A DNA stretch of 64,000 nt from Lysobacterales bacterium (lineage in GTDB: Bacteria > Pseudomonadota > Gammaproteobacteria > Xanthomonadales > SZUA-36). Made by a program: the position numbers and the translations under genes. The stretch lies in NCBI GenBank assembly GCA_033791845.1, contig JASJFX010000095.1:21855-85854 (forward strand). Reading direction: 5' to 3'. Positions 39,985 through 45,698 of this stretch are shown here, in pieces (within the stretch, counting starts at the first letter, position 1; each line of letters opens with the position of its first letter). The notes under the pieces are model-generated. The model worked only from the letters and a program-made list of their open reading frames with translations. It had not been told where the DNA came from and searched no databases.

Positions 39985-40166
39985 GCCTGCGATTTAAAGT
40001 TTTTGCGGATCAACACTTAAAGAAAAAATATAAAAAACAACTGGTGTGATTCATGTTGCGGTCGGGATTGCCCGCTTGCTGAAACATAAAATTGCTTGAA
40101 TACTATTCGCTTACGGTGACATACTCATCCTTACAGAGAAGTTACCTGACAAATGGGGAGGTCATT

Positions 40167-40865
40167 TTGGGTGCAATTCTGATCGGTATTCTTGAAGATG
40201 ATTTGGATCAGTCAGCGTTACTTGAGGTTTGGCTTGAAGACGCCGGATTCAAGACACGTGTGTTCGCCTCGGGTCCGGAATTCATACGCGCCGTTCAGCA
40301 GGAATGCTTCGATTTAATGCTGCTGGACTGGAACCTTCCTGAAATGAGTGGACTGGAGGTACTGGAATGGGTGCGTCACAATATCCAGAATCATATACCG
40401 GTACTTTTTCTGACCACCCGCGGGGAAGAACAGCATGTTGTGGCTGCACTTGAAGCCGGGGCTGATGACTACGTCAGTAAGCCGGCGCGCCCACAGGAAC
40501 TAGTGGCACGCATCCGTTCCCTGGCACGGCGTAGCGGTCTGGTTGAACCGGAACGCAGCAATATCGAAATCGATGGTTATTGTCTTGACCGGAAAGCCAT
40601 AACAATCAGCATGGATGGTCAGGACATCACCATGACACGACGGGAATTTGAACTCGCCTGGATGCTGTTCGATAACCTCGACAAGATCCTCTCCAGGGAA
40701 TACCTGCTCAGACACATCTGGAATATCGGTGCGGCAGTCAAGTCCCGCACCGTTGACACGCATATCAGTCGCGTGCGCAGCAAACTTAATCTCCGGCCCG
40801 AGAACGGCTGGCGACTTTCATCTGTTTATCATTACGGCTACCGATTGGAACAGGTTGACCGTTAA
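40167..40865 (+). CDS. OmpR/PhoB-family response regulator (REC + winged helix). A TTG start at 40167 behind GGGGAGG is preferred over the TTG at 40092
   Basis: ILEDDLD...LMLLDWNLPEMSG...DDYVSKP; winged-helix region TRREFELAWMLFDNLDKILSREYLL...RTVDTHISRVRSKL...GYRL. Confidence 0.85.
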   Translation: MGAILIGILEDDLDQSALLEVWLEDAGFKTRVFASGPEFIRAVQQECFDLMLLDWNLPEMSGLEVLEWVRHNIQNHIPVLFLTTRGEEQHVVAALEAGADDYVSKPARPQELVARIRSLARRSGLVEPERSNIEIDGYCLDRKAITISMDGQDITMTRREFELAWMLFDNLDKILSREYLLRHIWNIGAAVKSRTVDTHISRVRSKLNLRPENGWRLSSVYHYGYRLEQVDR

Positions 40866-40881
40866 GTCTCGAGGAAACACC

Positions 40882-41421
40882 ATGGCTACGAAAAAAGAAG
40901 ATACTGAACAAATCCAACCAGCACCTGACAATGTCGACCAAATACGTGAAATTCTGTTTGGTAACCAGATTCGCGCCGTCGACGAGCGTTTCGGGGCAGT
41001 CGAAAAACGAATGTCCAGGGAAAGCGAGAACCTGAGGAAGACACTCGAGAAACGCATTCACGAGTTGGAAAAACTGCTTGATCAATTCCGCGACAATGCG
41101 GGTGATCAACTCAATCGTGAGAGTGCAGAGCGTGACGCAAGCCTCAATGAAGTAACAAAATCGCTGGCAGCGTTTCGTCTCGACGCCGAGAATCAACTTG
41201 CCGAAATGCAGTCGGATTTCAATACCGAGATCAAGCAATTCCGGAAGGAGTTGCTCGCAGCACAGAATTCCCTGATGGCGGGTTTGGCCTCGCTGCAAGC
41301 ATCGCAAACTGAACGCTCCGATCAACTTGATGAAAGCAAGGTCGATCGCGGCGAGTTGGCGGGGTTTCTGTCAGACATTGCAAATCAACTGACACCCTCC
41401 AAAAAAAAGCGTAGTAAATAG
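40882..41421 (+). CDS. 179-aa acidic coiled-coil protein, unknown function
   Basis: ATG at 40882 sits behind GAGGAAA, 17 nt after the regulator's stop. The protein is rich in heptad-like E/K/L/Q sequence. Its N-terminal motif ILFGNQIRAVDERFGAVEKR recurs in the next gene product. The ORF-track N-terminal extension (40648-40881) overlaps the regulator gene and is rejected. Confidence 0.6.
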   Translation: MATKKEDTEQIQPAPDNVDQIREILFGNQIRAVDERFGAVEKRMSRESENLRKTLEKRIHELEKLLDQFRDNAGDQLNRESAERDASLNEVTKSLAAFRLDAENQLAEMQSDFNTEIKQFRKELLAAQNSLMAGLASLQASQTERSDQLDESKVDRGELAGFLSDIANQLTPSKKKRSK

Positions 41422-43356: not shown

Positions 43357-43856
43357 GGACCGCCAAGGTGTGTATGGTCGGTGCTTTCGGGGTAGGCAAG
43401 ACCAGCCTTGTCCGGCGATACATTCACCAGCAATTCGACGAGTCTTACCACACGACCCTCGGGGTCAAAATTGATACGCGTGTCGTCGACAATATTGAGA
43501 AACCCATCAAGCTGGTGTTGTGGGACATGGAAGGCGCTGACCCGTTTGAGAAAGATAAACGTCCACTGGCACGTATCCGTAGCTATATGAAAGGTGCGCA
43601 TGGACTCATTCTGGTGGCTGATGGCACGCGCCCTGCAACCGTTAAAACCGCATTGGGTCTGTACCATGACTTTTGCCGGGAATTCCAATACGTGCCGGCC
43701 ATTATGCTGGCCAACAAGGCCGATCTCACGGCCGAGTGGCGATTTGACGACTCGGTTATGCCCGATGCCCTCACGCTTTACCATACCAGCGCGCTCAATG
43801 GCCAGAATATCGATGCCGCATTCACTGCGCTGGGCAAAGCATTGTCTGAGTTATGA
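43353..43856 (+). CDS. Ras/Rab-like small GTPase (prokaryotic Ras superfamily member)
   Basis: G1 GAFGVGKT (aa 10-17), switch I HTTLGV, G3 WDMEG followed by A rather than Q, G4 NKAD (aa 121-124), G5 SAL (aa 146-148). Alignable by eye along its length with eukaryotic Rab1/Ypt1. ATGA overlaps join it to both neighbouring genes. Confidence 0.8.
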   Translation: MRTAKVCMVGAFGVGKTSLVRRYIHQQFDESYHTTLGVKIDTRVVDNIEKPIKLVLWDMEGADPFEKDKRPLARIRSYMKGAHGLILVADGTRPATVKTALGLYHDFCREFQYVPAIMLANKADLTAEWRFDDSVMPDALTLYHTSALNGQNIDAAFTALGKALSEL

Positions 43857-45373
43857 AGAGAGTCAGCCAGAGAGCCGCCCATTACATCAGGGACGAATTA
43901 CTCAAGCGTGAGCACTTCATCGTGATAGCACTGGATGCACGACAGAACATTCTCTCAGTTAACCGCTCCACTCCCGACTGGAAGCTGCCCGGTCTGATCC
44001 GTGGTTCCGTTCTGCCCGATACGCTTAGTTCATTGCTTGGTGCTGCCGTCGGGAGTGACGATCCGGTCGTGTTTTCTTATGTTGAGTTTGAAGGATATTT
44101 CGTAGACATACATGTACTTGGCAATGAAGCGTCTGCCGACCTCGTTTTACATGACGTAACAGAGGCACATGAACAGGAGCAAACCCTACAACAGCGGGCC
44201 CATGAGAATAGCCTGTTGTCTGAACAACGTGCGGCACTCAACTCGGAACTCGCAGAGCTCAACCAGGAGTTATTCTTGCGGCGTCAACAGGCTGAAAAGG
44301 CGAGTACCGCCAAAAGCCGTTTTATCGCCTCCATGTCCCATGAGTTTCGCTCACCCATTGCCTCCATCATGGGGTATGCCGATCTGTTGCGGACCGAATT
44401 ACCTGATTCGGAAAACCCACTAGCCCTGCAGCGGGCATCGTGGCACTTACTGACCCTGGTGGAAAATCTGCTCGAACAGGCCCGCGAAGGCGATGAGAGC
44501 GTGAAACTCAACCCGACCCGCTTCAGCCTCGACCGCCTGGTGGACGACATCGATGCCTTGTTTCGAACACAAGCAACCGCGAAAGCTCTTGATCTTGAAA
44601 CAAGATCATCACCGGGGAAAATCGAGGTCGAGTGTGATGAACTGCGGCTCCGGCAGATACTGATCAACCTGGTCAGCAATGCCTTGCGATATACGCAACA
44701 AGGCCAGATCAGTGTTCACGTCAAACACCATGAAGACAAGCTTTACATTCGAGTGCGTGACTCGGGTCAGGGTATCGCAGCCGAGGACATTGAGAGAATA
44801 TTTGAACCATTCACGCGGGTTGGTGAAAGTAACACCTCGGGTGCGGGCCTGGGGCTCACGATAACACGCCAGTTGATCAATCGCATGGGTGGAAAGCTCA
44901 AAGTCGAGAGCAAACCAGGCGTCGGCAGCGAGTTTCGAGCAGATATTCCGTGCCCGAGGGCACAGGATGAACATAAGGAGCCACCCCAACTGGCCGGAAC
45001 CCTGCTTTGGGTAGATGATGATCAGGATATCCTGTCTCTTTACCAACTGATGCTTGAGGGTTGGGGTTTACACGTGCTAACTGCCAGTAGTGTCACCCAG
45101 GCAAAGGACATGATAAACCGCCACAATTTTCCGGTTGTCGTAACGGACATGCATTTGACGGATGGCGACGGACTCGAGTTATTCAACTACTTCAAAACGA
45201 CACAGCCCGATATCGTGGGTATCATAATTTCCGGTTCCGGTTTCGTTGACCTGCCACTGGAGGCCGCCGCTAGCGGGATTCGTGCTTTTTTGCAAAAACC
45301 ATTGGATGCGGATGTACTTTATACCGAGATTGCTGCAGCATTTGCCGGAGGTTCACCTGGTCAATCTGTCTGA
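43853..45373 (+). CDS. Soluble hybrid sensor histidine kinase (N-terminal PAS-like region, coiled coil, HisKA, HATPase_c, REC)
   Basis: H-box SMSHEFRSPIASIMGY, N-box LINLVSNALRYT, G-boxes VRDSGQGI and GAGLGLTI. Receiver: LLWVDDDQD...VVVTDMHLTDGDG...FLQKPL. No TM segments are present. Confidence 0.88.
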   Translation: MKRVSQRAAHYIRDELLKREHFIVIALDARQNILSVNRSTPDWKLPGLIRGSVLPDTLSSLLGAAVGSDDPVVFSYVEFEGYFVDIHVLGNEASADLVLHDVTEAHEQEQTLQQRAHENSLLSEQRAALNSELAELNQELFLRRQQAEKASTAKSRFIASMSHEFRSPIASIMGYADLLRTELPDSENPLALQRASWHLLTLVENLLEQAREGDESVKLNPTRFSLDRLVDDIDALFRTQATAKALDLETRSSPGKIEVECDELRLRQILINLVSNALRYTQQGQISVHVKHHEDKLYIRVRDSGQGIAAEDIERIFEPFTRVGESNTSGAGLGLTITRQLINRMGGKLKVESKPGVGSEFRADIPCPRAQDEHKEPPQLAGTLLWVDDDQDILSLYQLMLEGWGLHVLTASSVTQAKDMINRHNFPVVVTDMHLTDGDGLELFNYFKTTQPDIVGIIISGSGFVDLPLEAAASGIRAFLQKPLDADVLYTEIAAAFAGGSPGQSV

Positions 45374-45698
45374 ACAAGCACAAAAACTGATTGCCAAACA
45401 GCGGCGCCGGTATATTGAAAGCATGCCTGACAAGCGCGAGGTGATCTACCAGTGCATGGCACAAGTCAGCAACGCAGTGAGCAGCGGAGAAGGGGGTCTG
45501 TGCGACAAGCTCTTCCAACAGGTCCACCACCTGGCGGGGTCTGCAGGTAGTTACGGTTTTGAATCTCTGGGTGAGGCAGCCTCGGTTGTAGATCGCTATC
45601 TTATCGCCAATTCACCCAGGGTAATTGATTTGCCAGAATTGGAGTCTCTGCTTCAAAATTTGCTCGACGAGATTGATGACATCATCCAAAAAAGCTGA
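45306..45698 (+). CDS. Hpt (histidine phosphotransfer) protein; start codon unresolved
   Basis: Hpt motif FQQVHHLAGSAGSYGFESLGEAA. The in-frame ATGs at 45306/45312 overlap the kinase 3' end. The next ATG (45423) would truncate helix 1. GGAGG at 45347-45351 is followed only by CTG at 45357. Confidence 0.65.
   Translation: MRMYFIPRLLQHLPEVHLVNLSEQAQKLIAKQRRRYIESMPDKREVIYQCMAQVSNAVSSGEGGLCDKLFQQVHHLAGSAGSYGFESLGEAASVVDRYLIANSPRVIDLPELESLLQNLLDEIDDIIQKS

What the first reader, a model, noticed from the sequence alone, without database searches (positions are those of the whole stretch)
40092..45698. Six-gene module coupling a full phosphorelay to a Ras/Rab-like GTPase, a coiled-coil protein and a peptidoglycan-anchored Roadblock-like membrane protein
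Six same-strand genes are tightly packed between the housekeeping genes cysQ and erpA. In order they encode an OmpR-type regulator, a 179-aa coiled-coil protein, and a 634-aa bitopic protein (cytoplasmic Roadblock/LC7-like, TM, BON-like, OmpA-like). These are followed by a 167-aa Ras/Rab-like GTPase, a soluble hybrid HK-REC, and an Hpt protein. The membrane-protein/GTPase and GTPase/kinase junctions are both ATGA overlaps (43353-43356 and 43853-43856), which implies stoichiometric co-expression. Established knowledge links MglA-like GTPases with Roadblock/LC7 partners (MglB) and with histidine kinases (the actinobacterial Cvn conservons: kinase, Roadblock, DUF742, GTPase). I do not know of a described system in which the Roadblock-like module is fused through the inner membrane to an OmpA/MotB-type cell-wall anchor and wired to an H1-D1-H2-D2 phosphorelay ending in a transcription factor. 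The architecture suggests an envelope-spanning switch that reads or sets cell-wall or positional state and outputs both GTPase state and transcription. It lies 5 kb from the Pil-Chp twitching cluster, so a role in polarity or motility is conceivable but speculative.
Basis: partly seen in the sequence, partly recalled or inferred. Interest (0 to 1): 0.82.

Follow-up and report, generated by a model that had tools for sequence, protein, structure and literature searches.

The report
Rup-type Ras GTPase envelope signalling module
The six genes are real and form a conserved bacterial signalling module built around a Rab/Ras-like GTPase and a cell-wall-anchored membrane protein, but its four-gene core was already described by genome analysis in 2014 ("Group 1 Rup" system) and has not been tested experimentally in any paper I could find.

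Summary
Six packed + strand genes (40167-45698) encode:
- an OmpR-type regulator;
- a 179-aa coiled-coil protein;
- a 634-aa single-pass membrane protein;
- a 167-aa Rab/Ras-like GTPase;
- a soluble hybrid kinase-receiver;
- an Hpt protein.

Both ATGA overlaps are present.

- OmpA-like C-terminus: Pfam, Foldseek TM 0.75, invariant Asp/Arg pair.
- BON-like periplasmic repeats: weak here, above Pfam threshold in two of six long family members scanned.
- Roadblock/longin-like cytoplasmic domain: all top-50 Foldseek hits on a medium-confidence model; no sequence-level signal.

The novelty claim is overstated. Wuichet and Søgaard-Andersen (2014) described the core as the "Group 1 Rup" neighbourhood. 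This locus meets every stated feature:
- a GTPase with no catalytic Gln;
- a coiled-coil protein;
- an unknown-domain/TM/OmpA protein;
- an output protein with a conserved N-terminal Gln (51 of 54).

New here:
- the Roadblock-like fold;
- a wider set of interchangeable outputs (kinase, HD-GYP, cyclase, PP2C, sigma-54 activator);
- Hpt and OmpR as lineage-specific additions;
- a family of at least 3,900 clusters across many phyla.

Proximity to Pil-Chp is not conserved. Verdict: a new member of a known but uncharacterised kind.

The parts
40167..40865 (+). OmpR/PhoB-type response regulator (232 aa), the D2 and transcriptional output. A lineage-specific accessory of the module.
   Evidence: Pfam Response_reg 1.4e-27 and Trans_reg_C 2.8e-19. 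It falls below every NCBIfam equivalog cut-off. The start was set from the Shine-Dalgarno motif and the 232-aa orthologue in L001. The DD, D, T and K receiver motifs are read directly from the sequence.
40882..41421 (+). Cytoplasmic coiled-coil protein (179 aa), a core component.
   Evidence: No Pfam family above threshold. It lies directly upstream of the membrane-protein gene in nearly all of 84 loci. Conserved N-terminal motif GNVDKIRDILFGxQMRDYExRF and C-terminal motif KxDRxxLA...A.RL.
41452..43356 (+). Single-pass membrane protein (634 aa), a core component and the probable envelope sensor or anchor.
   Evidence: More than 1,322 homologues. The cytoplasmic 300 residues hit 3,937 cluster representatives at E<=1e-3. 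Predicted structure.
41452..41856 (+). Membrane protein residues 1-135: helical cytoplasmic region holding the family's most conserved motif, LFPVMGPAIRR (91-101), N115 and the invariant W129-R130.
   Evidence: Invariant columns. pLDDT is below 50 for residues 71-122 in the full-length model and for 102-122 in the cytoplasmic model, which suggests a partner-dependent structure.
41869..42225 (+). Membrane protein residues 140-258: Roadblock/longin-like alpha-beta-beta-alpha-beta-beta-beta-alpha domain.
   Evidence: Two independent AF2 runs give the same topology. All top-50 Foldseek PDB hits belong to the Roadblock/longin superfamily: MglB, LAMTOR, Rag C-terminal domain, Bet5, Sec22b, Mon1-Ccz1 and Streptomyces Roadblock (E 2.5e-4 to 4e-3). 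No sequence-level support.
42331..42390 (+). Transmembrane helix (about residues 294-313), with the N-terminus inside the cell.
   Evidence: It is the only Kyte-Doolittle window above 1.6 in the protein. RGK precedes it. It sits within helix 294-332 of the model.
42454..43014 (+). Three periplasmic beta-beta-alpha-beta-alpha repeats (residues 335-521), BON-like or ring-building-motif-like.
   Evidence: pLDDT about 90. Foldseek hit to Rv0899, a BON plus OmpA-like protein, over 261 columns. Weak YscD 'Bon-like domain 3' hits in 6 of 30 members. Pfam BON above its cut-off in two long family members, P0387 and P0412.
43021..43347 (+). OmpA/Pal/MotB-type peptidoglycan-binding domain (residues 524-632).
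   Evidence: Pfam OmpA 28.1 bits (cut-off 27.2), found in 29 of 30 members. Foldseek matches Pal 4g4w at E 1.4e-6, TM 0.76. D572 and R587 are invariant and 15 residues apart. From memory, that spacing matches the diaminopimelate-binding pair of OmpA-like domains.
43353..43856 (+). Rup-type (Rab/Ras-like) small GTPase, 167 aa, a core component.
   Evidence: Pfam Ras 2.1e-21. The closest solved structure is Rab1B at 2.5e-16. Motifs are G1 GAFGVGKT, G3 WDMEGA with no Gln, NKAD and TSAL. In 124 family members Phe occupies the Ras-G12 position in 112, and Gln is not among the residues tallied at the Q61 position.
43853..45373 (+). Soluble hybrid histidine kinase-receiver (506 aa; H1 and D1), the output component.
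   Evidence: HisKA 153-212, HATPase_c 262-367 and Response_reg 385-493. No hydrophobic segment.
43853..44227 (+). Kinase residues 1-125: the N-terminal domain shared by all output proteins of this system, ending in the conserved QQxxxExxLL motif (Q114).
   Evidence: Q114 is conserved in 51 of 54 output proteins carrying five or more different catalytic domains. No Pfam or PDB match. It corresponds to the 'invariant glutamine' N-terminal region of PMC4316618.
45342..45698 (+). Hpt phosphotransfer protein (H2, probably 118 aa). A lineage-specific accessory.
   Evidence: Pfam Hpt 1.4e-8. HHLAGSAGSYGF motif. The start was inferred from conservation with L006, L002 and L005.

Best explanation
This is a Group 1 Rup (Rup1) small-GTPase signalling module. 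In this lineage its interchangeable output is a four-step phosphorelay.

Shown:
- A conserved core of coiled-coil protein, single-pass membrane protein and Rab/Ras-like GTPase.
- The membrane protein has a cytoplasmic helical region, a Roadblock-like domain, a TM helix, BON-like repeats and an OmpA-like peptidoglycan-binding domain.
- The GTPase keeps all nucleotide-binding motifs but lacks the catalytic Gln and carries Phe at the Ras-G12 position.
- A fourth gene has a variable catalytic part and a conserved N-terminal domain of about 125 aa with a near-invariant Gln.

Inferred mechanism:
1. The periplasmic BON-like and OmpA-like domains report a state of the cell wall or envelope, through attachment, strain or a muropeptide ligand.
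2. The signal crosses the single TM helix to the Roadblock-like domain. Like MglB, Ragulator or Mon1-Ccz1, this domain sets the nucleotide state of the Rup GTPase, as GAP platform or as GEF. The coiled-coil protein may act as co-scaffold.
3. Rup-GTP binds the N-terminal domain of the soluble kinase and changes its autophosphorylation.
4. Phosphate then flows H163 to the receiver Asp, to the Hpt His, to the OmpR-type regulator, which changes transcription.
5. The conserved Gln of the kinase N-domain may complete the GTPase active site in trans, as Wuichet and Søgaard-Andersen proposed. The effector would then also switch the signal off.
For: The features stated for the published Group 1 Rup neighbourhood are all met:
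- Rab-like GTPase without the G3 Gln.
- Adjacent coiled-coil protein, and unknown-domain/TM/OmpA protein.
- Output N-terminal Gln in 51 of 54.

Co-inheritance:
- The triad keeps the same order in most of 84 loci. These come from Gammaproteobacteria, Desulfobacterota, Acidobacteriota, Gemmatimonadota, Bacteroidota, Nitrospirota, Planctomycetota, Zetaproteobacteria and Variovorax.
- Flanking genes differ between loci.

Modular output, which argues that the N-domain is the GTPase-facing adaptor. The same N-domain precedes HisKA/HATPase/REC, HD-GYP, class III cyclase, SpoIIE/PP2C, sigma-54 AAA+ or PAS domains.

Roadblock-like fold. Translational coupling through the ATGA overlaps. All four phospho-acceptor motifs are present (read from the translations; Pfam).
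Against: - No experiment exists for any member: none in the 2014 paper and none found afterwards.
- The Roadblock assignment rests on a model with pLDDT 41-86 in that domain. Profile searches see nothing: PDB profile search none, hhalign against MglB 1% (though that MglB profile was shallow), and only 3 of 30 weak Fuz_longin hits.
- The direction of signalling, GEF versus GAP, and who binds whom are all inferred.
- The fold of the output N-domain is unknown.
- Many relatives with hybrid kinases have no adjacent Hpt, so the full relay is not a general property of the system.
- A few loci lack an adjacent GTPase gene (L055, L046).
Confidence: 0.6

Rival explanations
1. Positioning or assembly switch rather than a sensor. 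The membrane protein and the coiled-coil protein form a cell-wall-anchored scaffold. The GTPase controls the assembly or subcellular position of that scaffold, in the way MglA controls polarity. The N-domain of the kinase is mainly a GAP that lets the two-component system reset the GTPase. Information would then flow from kinase to GTPase, not the reverse.
For: - MglB-like fold hits.
- The OmpA-like domain with its invariant Asp/Arg looks like a static anchor of the MotB or Pal type.
- The coiled-coil protein and the membrane protein share an N-terminal motif, which suggests co-assembly (P 7e-4, probability only 26%).
- The conserved Gln fits a GAP role.
Against: - The variable fourth gene is always a classical signal-output enzyme or transcription factor. 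That is most simply read as the thing being regulated.
- No cytoskeletal, pilus or motility genes co-occur consistently.
- The soluble kinase has no recognisable sensor domain other than the shared N-domain.
Confidence: 0.2
2. Envelope-stress structural protein with a bystander GTPase. The membrane protein is primarily a BON/OmpA envelope-stabilising protein, like Rv0899/ArfA or OsmY. The two-component genes only regulate its expression, and the GTPase has a chaperone-like or unrelated role.
For: - Foldseek similarity to the BON plus OmpA-like protein Rv0899.
- BON Pfam hits in long family members.
- In several Woeseiaceae-type loci the mechanosensitive channel gene mscL follows the module (identified by eye).
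Against: - About 290 highly conserved cytoplasmic residues, including a Roadblock-like domain, are not needed for a periplasmic structural role.
- The GTPase gene overlaps both neighbours and is co-inherited across phyla.
- The output N-domain travels with the triad whatever the catalytic domain.
Confidence: 0.1
3. Chance adjacency of unrelated genes, or mis-called ORFs.
For: None beyond the lack of Pfam hits for the coiled-coil protein and the cytoplasmic region.
Against: - Same gene order in dozens of phylogenetically distant genomes with different flanks.
- 4-nt overlaps.
- Thousands of homologues.
Confidence: 0.02

Closest known systems
Group 1 Rup (Rup1) GTPase neighbourhood, Wuichet and Søgaard-Andersen 2014, Genome Biol Evol 7:57 (PMC4316618)
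   Same: - Rab/Ras-like GTPase lacking the G3 glutamine.
- Adjacent cytoplasmic coiled-coil protein.
- Adjacent protein with an unknown conserved domain, an inner-membrane helix and a C-terminal OmpA domain.
- Fourth gene encoding a histidine kinase (or a c-di-GMP enzyme) whose N-terminal region has an invariant Gln.
- Occurs in gammaproteobacteria.
   Different: - That paper lists no MglB/Roadblock coupling for Rup (0 of 121) and calls the membrane protein's domain unknown. Here it is predicted to be Roadblock/longin-like.
- The paper names kinase and GGDEF/EAL outputs. I also find HD-GYP, class III cyclase, PP2C/SpoIIE, sigma-54 activator and PAS-only outputs.
- This locus adds Hpt and an OmpR-type regulator, giving a complete relay.
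Actinobacterial conservon (CvnA-D; Mfp in mycobacteria)
   Same: A small Ras-superfamily GTPase encoded with a Roadblock-fold protein and a histidine kinase. The proposed logic is a membrane-associated, GPCR-like complex.
   Different: - The conservon GTPase belongs to the MglA family; this one is Rab-like and keeps the G3 Asp.
- The conservon Roadblock protein is free-standing.
- There the kinase is the membrane component and is not a hybrid.
- The conservon has a DUF742 protein; none is found here.
- The conservon has no OmpA or BON domain and no coiled-coil partner.
MglA/MglB polarity switch (Myxococcus, Thermus)
   Same: A Roadblock-fold partner of a small GTPase. MglB structures are among the best fold matches.
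   Different: - MglB is a soluble dimeric GAP with detectable Robl_LC7 sequence signature; no such signature is found here.
- MglA carries its own catalytic residues.
- There is no transmembrane or peptidoglycan link and no dedicated two-component output in the operon.
MotB / Pal / Rv0899 (ArfA) OmpA-like and BON proteins
   Same: The periplasmic OmpA-like domain with its conserved Asp/Arg pair, preceded by BON-like domains (as in Rv0899), on an N-in single-pass anchor (as in MotB).
   Different: Those proteins have no large conserved cytoplasmic domain and no GTPase partner.
Eukaryotic Roadblock/longin GTPase regulators (Ragulator-Rag, Mon1-Ccz1, TRAPP)
   Same: A membrane-tethered Roadblock/longin platform acting on a Rab/Ras-like GTPase. 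These are among the top fold matches, and the GTPase is closest to Rab1.
   Different: This is an analogy of fold and logic only. No sequence homology is detectable, and no GEF activity has been shown.

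Membership tests
Group 1 Rup system (PMC4316618) | Small single-domain GTPase of the Rup (Rab/Ras-like) type rather than the MglA type | tested here: met
   167 aa. Pfam Ras 2.1e-21. The best solved relatives are Rab1B, Rab38 and Rab32. The G3 Asp is present (WD58xxG), invariant in 124 of 124. No joint phylogeny with the published Rup1 set was run.
Group 1 Rup system (PMC4316618) | G3 motif lacks the catalytic glutamine | tested here: met
   WDMEGA. The Q61-equivalent position is mostly E, A, T or S, and Gln is not among the residues tallied in 124 members. 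It aligns to Q67 of Rab1B.
Group 1 Rup system (PMC4316618) | Neighbouring cytoplasmic coiled-coil protein | tested here: met
   179-aa helical protein with no TM segment, present directly upstream in nearly all loci.
Group 1 Rup system (PMC4316618) | Neighbouring protein with a conserved unknown domain, an inner-membrane helix and a C-terminal OmpA domain | tested here: met
Group 1 Rup system (PMC4316618) | Output protein (kinase or c-di-GMP enzyme) with an N-terminal region carrying an invariant Gln | tested here: met
   Q114 in 51 of 54 downstream proteins, and above 90% in alignment A5.
Roadblock/LC7/MglB superfamily (cytoplasmic residues 140-258) | alpha-beta-beta-alpha-beta-beta-beta fold | tested here: met
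   Topology in two AF2 runs. All top-50 Foldseek hits are Roadblock/longin proteins, probability 0.99-1.00, TM to target 0.2-0.65 (about 0.45-0.65 for single-domain targets). The model's pLDDT in this domain is only 41-86.
Roadblock/LC7/MglB superfamily (cytoplasmic residues 140-258) | Sequence-profile match to Robl_LC7 or MglB | tested here: not met
   No Robl_LC7 Pfam hit in 30 members at E<=10. Profile against PDB sequences finds none. hhalign against an MglB alignment gives 1% probability, but that alignment was shallow (Neff 1.8).
Roadblock/LC7/MglB superfamily (cytoplasmic residues 140-258) | Dimerisation and GAP or GEF activity on the partner GTPase | not testable with these tools
   Needs multimer modelling or biochemistry.
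OmpA-like peptidoglycan-binding domain (PF00691) | Profile match, fold, and the conserved Asp/Arg ligand pair | tested here: met
   28.1 bits against a 27.2 cut-off. 29 of 30 members match. Foldseek to Pal and the OmpA C-terminal domain at E 1e-6. D572 and R587 are invariant. Their ligand-binding role is from memory of the OmpA-like literature.
BON domain (PF04972) | Profile match in the periplasmic repeats | tested here: inconclusive
   No BON hit in the window protein. 6 of 30 members give weak YscD Bon-like hits. BON exceeds its cut-off in the long family members P0387 and P0412. Rv0899 is a Foldseek hit.
Actinobacterial conservon (Cvn/Mfp) | MglA-family GTPase, free-standing Roadblock protein, DUF742 protein and membrane histidine kinase | tested here: not met
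   The GTPase is Rab-like. No DUF742 or Robl_LC7 hit in any of the six proteins. The kinase is soluble and hybrid.
His-Asp-His-Asp phosphorelay | H-box His, receiver Asp, Hpt His and regulator Asp all present | tested here: met
   SHEFRSPI (H163), VVVTDMHL, HHLAGSAGSYG and LMLLDWNLP, read from the translations, with Pfam domain matches. Phosphotransfer itself was not tested.
Anti-phage defence systems (PADLOC) | Match to a known defence protein model | tested here: not met
   Only marginal generic P-loop and HATPase hits.

The most novel reading that the evidence does not exclude
The bacterial relatives closest to eukaryotic Rab/Ras/Rho/Ran GTPases (Rup1) may after all be paired with a Roadblock/longin-type regulator. 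That regulator would be hidden in the 'unknown' domain of a cell-wall-anchored single-pass membrane protein. The module would then be a bacterial receptor-coupled G-protein system:
- a periplasmic, peptidoglycan-bound receptor domain drives a cytoplasmic Roadblock platform;
- the platform sets the GTPase state;
- the GTPase plugs into interchangeable effectors through one adaptor domain.

GTP hydrolysis might use catalytic residues supplied in trans by two different partners: the invariant R130 of the membrane protein and Q114 of the effector. That would be a split version of the TBC-type dual finger.
Probability: 0.3. Interest if true: 0.75.

Novelty: new member of a known kind. Interest (0 to 1): 0.5.

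Why it matters
Rup1 GTPases are the bacterial group that clusters with eukaryotic Rab/Ras/Rho/Ran. No paper I could find has tested any of them experimentally.

This survey shows that their membrane partner belongs to a large family with no Pfam annotation of its cytoplasmic part: at least 3,900 clusters at 50% identity, and at least 579 species genomes.

It also gives a concrete, testable wiring diagram: envelope-anchored Roadblock-like protein, then GTPase, then a shared adaptor domain, then a kinase, cyclase, phosphodiesterase, phosphatase or sigma-54 activator.

If the Roadblock assignment holds, GTPase-Roadblock pairing extends to the Rab/Ras-like branch in bacteria. That bears on how eukaryotic GTPase regulation originated, and it would describe a receptor-G-protein-effector logic in bacteria.

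For this window alone the finding is one more instance of that system.

Tried and rejected
- **Sequence-level proof of the Roadblock domain failed.** A profile of 30 domain sequences against PDB sequences gave only apolipoprotein noise. Per-member Pfam scans at E<=10 gave 3 of 30 Fuz_longin_1 hits at best. hhalign against an MglB alignment gave 1% probability.
- **Are the output N-domain and the Roadblock-like domain homologous to each other?** hhalign gave 0.4% probability. Rejected.
- **Identity of the output N-domain.** No Pfam or PDB match. MON1 hits at E about 0.9 are not significant.
- **Domain fusions between the membrane protein and the GTPase or an output.** Long family members (900-1,500 aa) carry only extra BON and OmpA domains. 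No informative fusion was found.
- **Defence-system reading.** PADLOC gave nothing relevant.
- **Promoter and terminator scans.** Counts did not exceed shuffled controls.
- **Pil-Chp or motility link.** Rejected because the flanks are not conserved.
- **Literature searches for experimental work on Rup1 or its partners found none**. The library covers open-access papers only.

Full report
**1. Observation**

ORF listing shows six consecutive + strand genes between a CysQ-type inositol phosphatase (39172-39984) and, further downstream, an ErpA-type gene (47286-47633).

Pfam assigns the following:

| Gene | Pfam result |
|---|---|
| Regulator | Response_reg plus Trans_reg_C |
| 179-aa helical protein | nothing above threshold |
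| 634-aa protein | OmpA only (residues 529-607, 28.1 bits, cut-off 27.2) |
| 167-aa protein | Ras/Roc |
| 506-aa protein | HisKA, HATPase_c, Response_reg |
| Last ORF | Hpt |

NCBIfam names none of them as an equivalog.

- The two ATGA overlaps at 43353-43356 and 43853-43856 are real.
- The other junctions are 16 and 30 bp.
- The 634-aa protein has one hydrophobic segment (about 294-313). The kinase has none.

I refine two starts.
- The regulator starts at TTG 40167, after GGGGAGG, giving 232 aa as in the orthologue of L001.
- Hpt starts at TTG 45342 (118 aa). The conserved LSEQAQKL...RRRYI segment lies upstream of the next ATG, and the 87% relative starts one codon downstream of the equivalent position.

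All four phospho-acceptor motifs of an H1-D1-H2-D2 relay can be read in the translations.

**2. The membrane protein**

A 30-sequence AlphaFold2 model has mean pLDDT 75, and about 90 for residues 300-634. Foldseek against the PDB gives Pal, the OmpA C-terminal domain, YfiB and the MotB C-terminal domain (E about 1e-6, TM to target up to 0.77). It also gives Rv0899, a BON plus OmpA-like protein, over 261 columns.

- D572 and R587 are invariant and 15 residues apart. From memory, that matches the diaminopimelate-binding pair of OmpA-like domains.
- Residues 335-521 form three beta-beta-alpha-beta-alpha repeats.
- BON is not detected in this protein. However, 6 of 30 relatives give weak YscD 'Bon-like' hits. 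In two of six long family members scanned, P0387 and P0412, Pfam BON exceeds its cut-off; a third, P0401, scores just below it.

A second model covered the cytoplasmic 300 residues with 69 sequences. Its mean pLDDT is 62, and 41-86 in the domain of interest. It reproduces the alpha-beta-beta-alpha-beta-beta-beta-alpha topology at residues 140-258.

Its 50 best Foldseek hits are all Roadblock/longin-superfamily proteins (E 2.5e-4 to 4e-3):
- MglB from Thermus and Myxococcus;
- LAMTOR/Ragulator;
- Rag C-terminal domains;
- TRAPP Bet5;
- the Sec22b and VAMP7 longin domains;
- AP sigma subunits;
- Mon1-Ccz1;
- a Streptomyces Roadblock protein;
- an Asgard Roadblock protein.

No sequence-level signal supports this. 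I therefore rate the Roadblock-like fold as probable (about 0.75), not proven.

The most conserved part of the family is upstream of that domain: LFPVMGPAIRR (91-101), N115 and W129-R130. R130 is the only invariant charged residue of the cytoplasmic region.

**3. The GTPase**

- Its closest solved relatives are eukaryotic Rab1B, Rab38 and Rab32 (E 2.5e-16).
- In 124 family members NKxD is invariant, and the P-loop and TSA motifs are invariant or nearly so.
- The Ras-G12 position is Phe in 112.
- The Q61 position is mostly Glu, Ala, Thr or Ser, and Gln is not among the residues tallied.
- The protein should therefore bind GTP but hydrolyse it poorly on its own.

**4. Conservation**

- The membrane protein has more than 1,322 homologues in the 90% clusters.
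- Its cytoplasmic 300 residues hit 3,937 representatives of 50% clusters, 1,316 of them at E<=1e-30.
- At least 579 species genomes encode a relative.

In 84 fetched loci the order coiled-coil, membrane protein, GTPase is nearly universal. Exceptions are mostly contig ends or frameshifts.

The fourth gene varies:
- hybrid kinase-receiver in at least 35 loci;
- HD-GYP (L020, L036);
- class III nucleotide cyclase (L042, L069, L070);
- SpoIIE/PP2C phosphatase (L059, L039);
- sigma-54 activator (L061);
- PAS-only (L049).

In nearly all of them the first 125 residues or so align, and end in QQxxxExxLL. Q114 is conserved in 51 of 54.

The accessory genes are lineage-specific.
- The OmpR-type regulator sits upstream mainly in Woeseiaceae-like gammaproteobacteria.
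- An Hpt gene was detected in 8 loci. It is fused to the kinase in L007, and paired with an NtrC-type regulator in L004.
- Several hybrid-kinase loci have no adjacent Hpt.

Flanking genes differ outside close relatives, so the Pil-Chp proximity is incidental.

**5. Comparison with what is known**

Wuichet and Søgaard-Andersen (2014, PMC4316618) describe exactly this core as the Group 1 Rup neighbourhood:
- a coiled-coil cytoplasmic protein;
- a protein with a conserved unknown domain, an inner-membrane helix and a C-terminal OmpA domain;
- a GTPase lacking the G3 Gln;
- an output, either a GGDEF/EAL protein or a histidine kinase, whose N-terminal region has an invariant Gln.

They propose that this Gln is supplied in trans. 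They also propose the system as an analogue of the actinobacterial conservon, and state that no member has been characterised.

Later papers mention Rup1 only in phylogenies. I found no experimental study, although the library holds open-access papers only.

Every stated feature of that system is met here, so I file the locus as a member. It is not a conservon and not an MglA/MglB pair (see the membership rows).

Relative to the 2014 description, four things are added here:
- The 'unknown' domain is predicted to be Roadblock/longin-like. That paper counted 0 of 121 Rup genes coupled to MglB.
- The output repertoire is broader.
- In this lineage the output is extended to a complete phosphorelay ending in an OmpR-type regulator.
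- The family is much larger than the 71 small Rup sequences then known.

**6. Mechanism**

Shown:
- the composition of the module and its co-inheritance;
- translational coupling;
- intact nucleotide-binding and phosphorelay motifs;
- the shared adaptor domain on interchangeable outputs.

Inferred:
- The periplasmic BON-like and OmpA-like part reads or holds the cell wall.
- The Roadblock-like domain sets the nucleotide state of the GTPase.
- Rup-GTP acts on the kinase N-domain.
- The relay changes transcription.
- Q114, and possibly R130, complete catalysis in trans.

I put about 0.9 on membership of the Rup1 system and about 0.5 on this direction of signalling. The main rival is a positioning or assembly switch in which the kinase N-domain is chiefly a GAP.

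**7. Verdict**

The claimed novelty does not, because the core system is published though untested. This is a new member of a known kind, with a useful new structural lead. Interest 0.5.

Noticed in passing
window 46314-46460 (+), in the 780-bp gap between Hpt and the DUF6776-like gene: About 145 bp are almost 100% identical in the window, L006 and L001, although the proteins of these genomes are only 73-87% identical and the surrounding intergenic DNA is poorly conserved. The segment ends in a strong intrinsic terminator, AAGCGGCTTCGGCCGCTTTTTT (46430-46455). It is a candidate small RNA or leader. There is no Rfam match.
   Followed up: partly
L008:7712-8131, and the equivalent gene in L025, L035, L037, L048 and L058: In Woeseiaceae-type relatives the gene directly after the Rup-module kinase encodes an MscL-like mechanosensitive channel, recognised by eye from MLxEFKxFAMRGNVVDMAVG. 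This may simply be shared synteny within one family, but it fits an envelope or osmotic theme.
   Followed up: no
window 40882-41010 and 41452-41565: The coiled-coil protein and the membrane protein begin with a similar motif, (D/N)xxxIRxILFG...RF versus DDLERLxxLLLG...RL. hhalign gives P 7e-4 and probability 26%. They may share an interaction or assembly segment.
   Followed up: partly
P0387, P0389, P0412 (1,470-1,510 aa); L003, L047, L067, L077: There are long versions of the membrane protein (900-1,500 aa) with an N-terminal extension and extra periplasmic BON repeats. One source names some of them 'OmpA/FlaC'.
   Followed up: partly
L006:6001-7901: In the closest genome (87% identity) the membrane-protein gene is split into three ORFs of 322, 63 and 284 aa. 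This is either a frameshifted pseudogene or long-read assembly errors.
   Followed up: no
window 40096-40130: The segment TTGAAT-N17-ACATACTCA, about 40 nt upstream of the regulator's start codon, is conserved in L001 and L006 as TTGAAA...GACATACTCA. It could be the module's promoter. The consensus scan did not pick it up.
   Followed up: no
L034:10232-11077, L041:10339-11214: In Acidobacteriota loci the hybrid kinase is followed by a protein of about 285 aa with a receiver domain and a C-terminal part that looks like an anti-sigma-type kinase (judged by eye). This suggests a partner-switching output in place of Hpt and OmpR.
   Followed up: no
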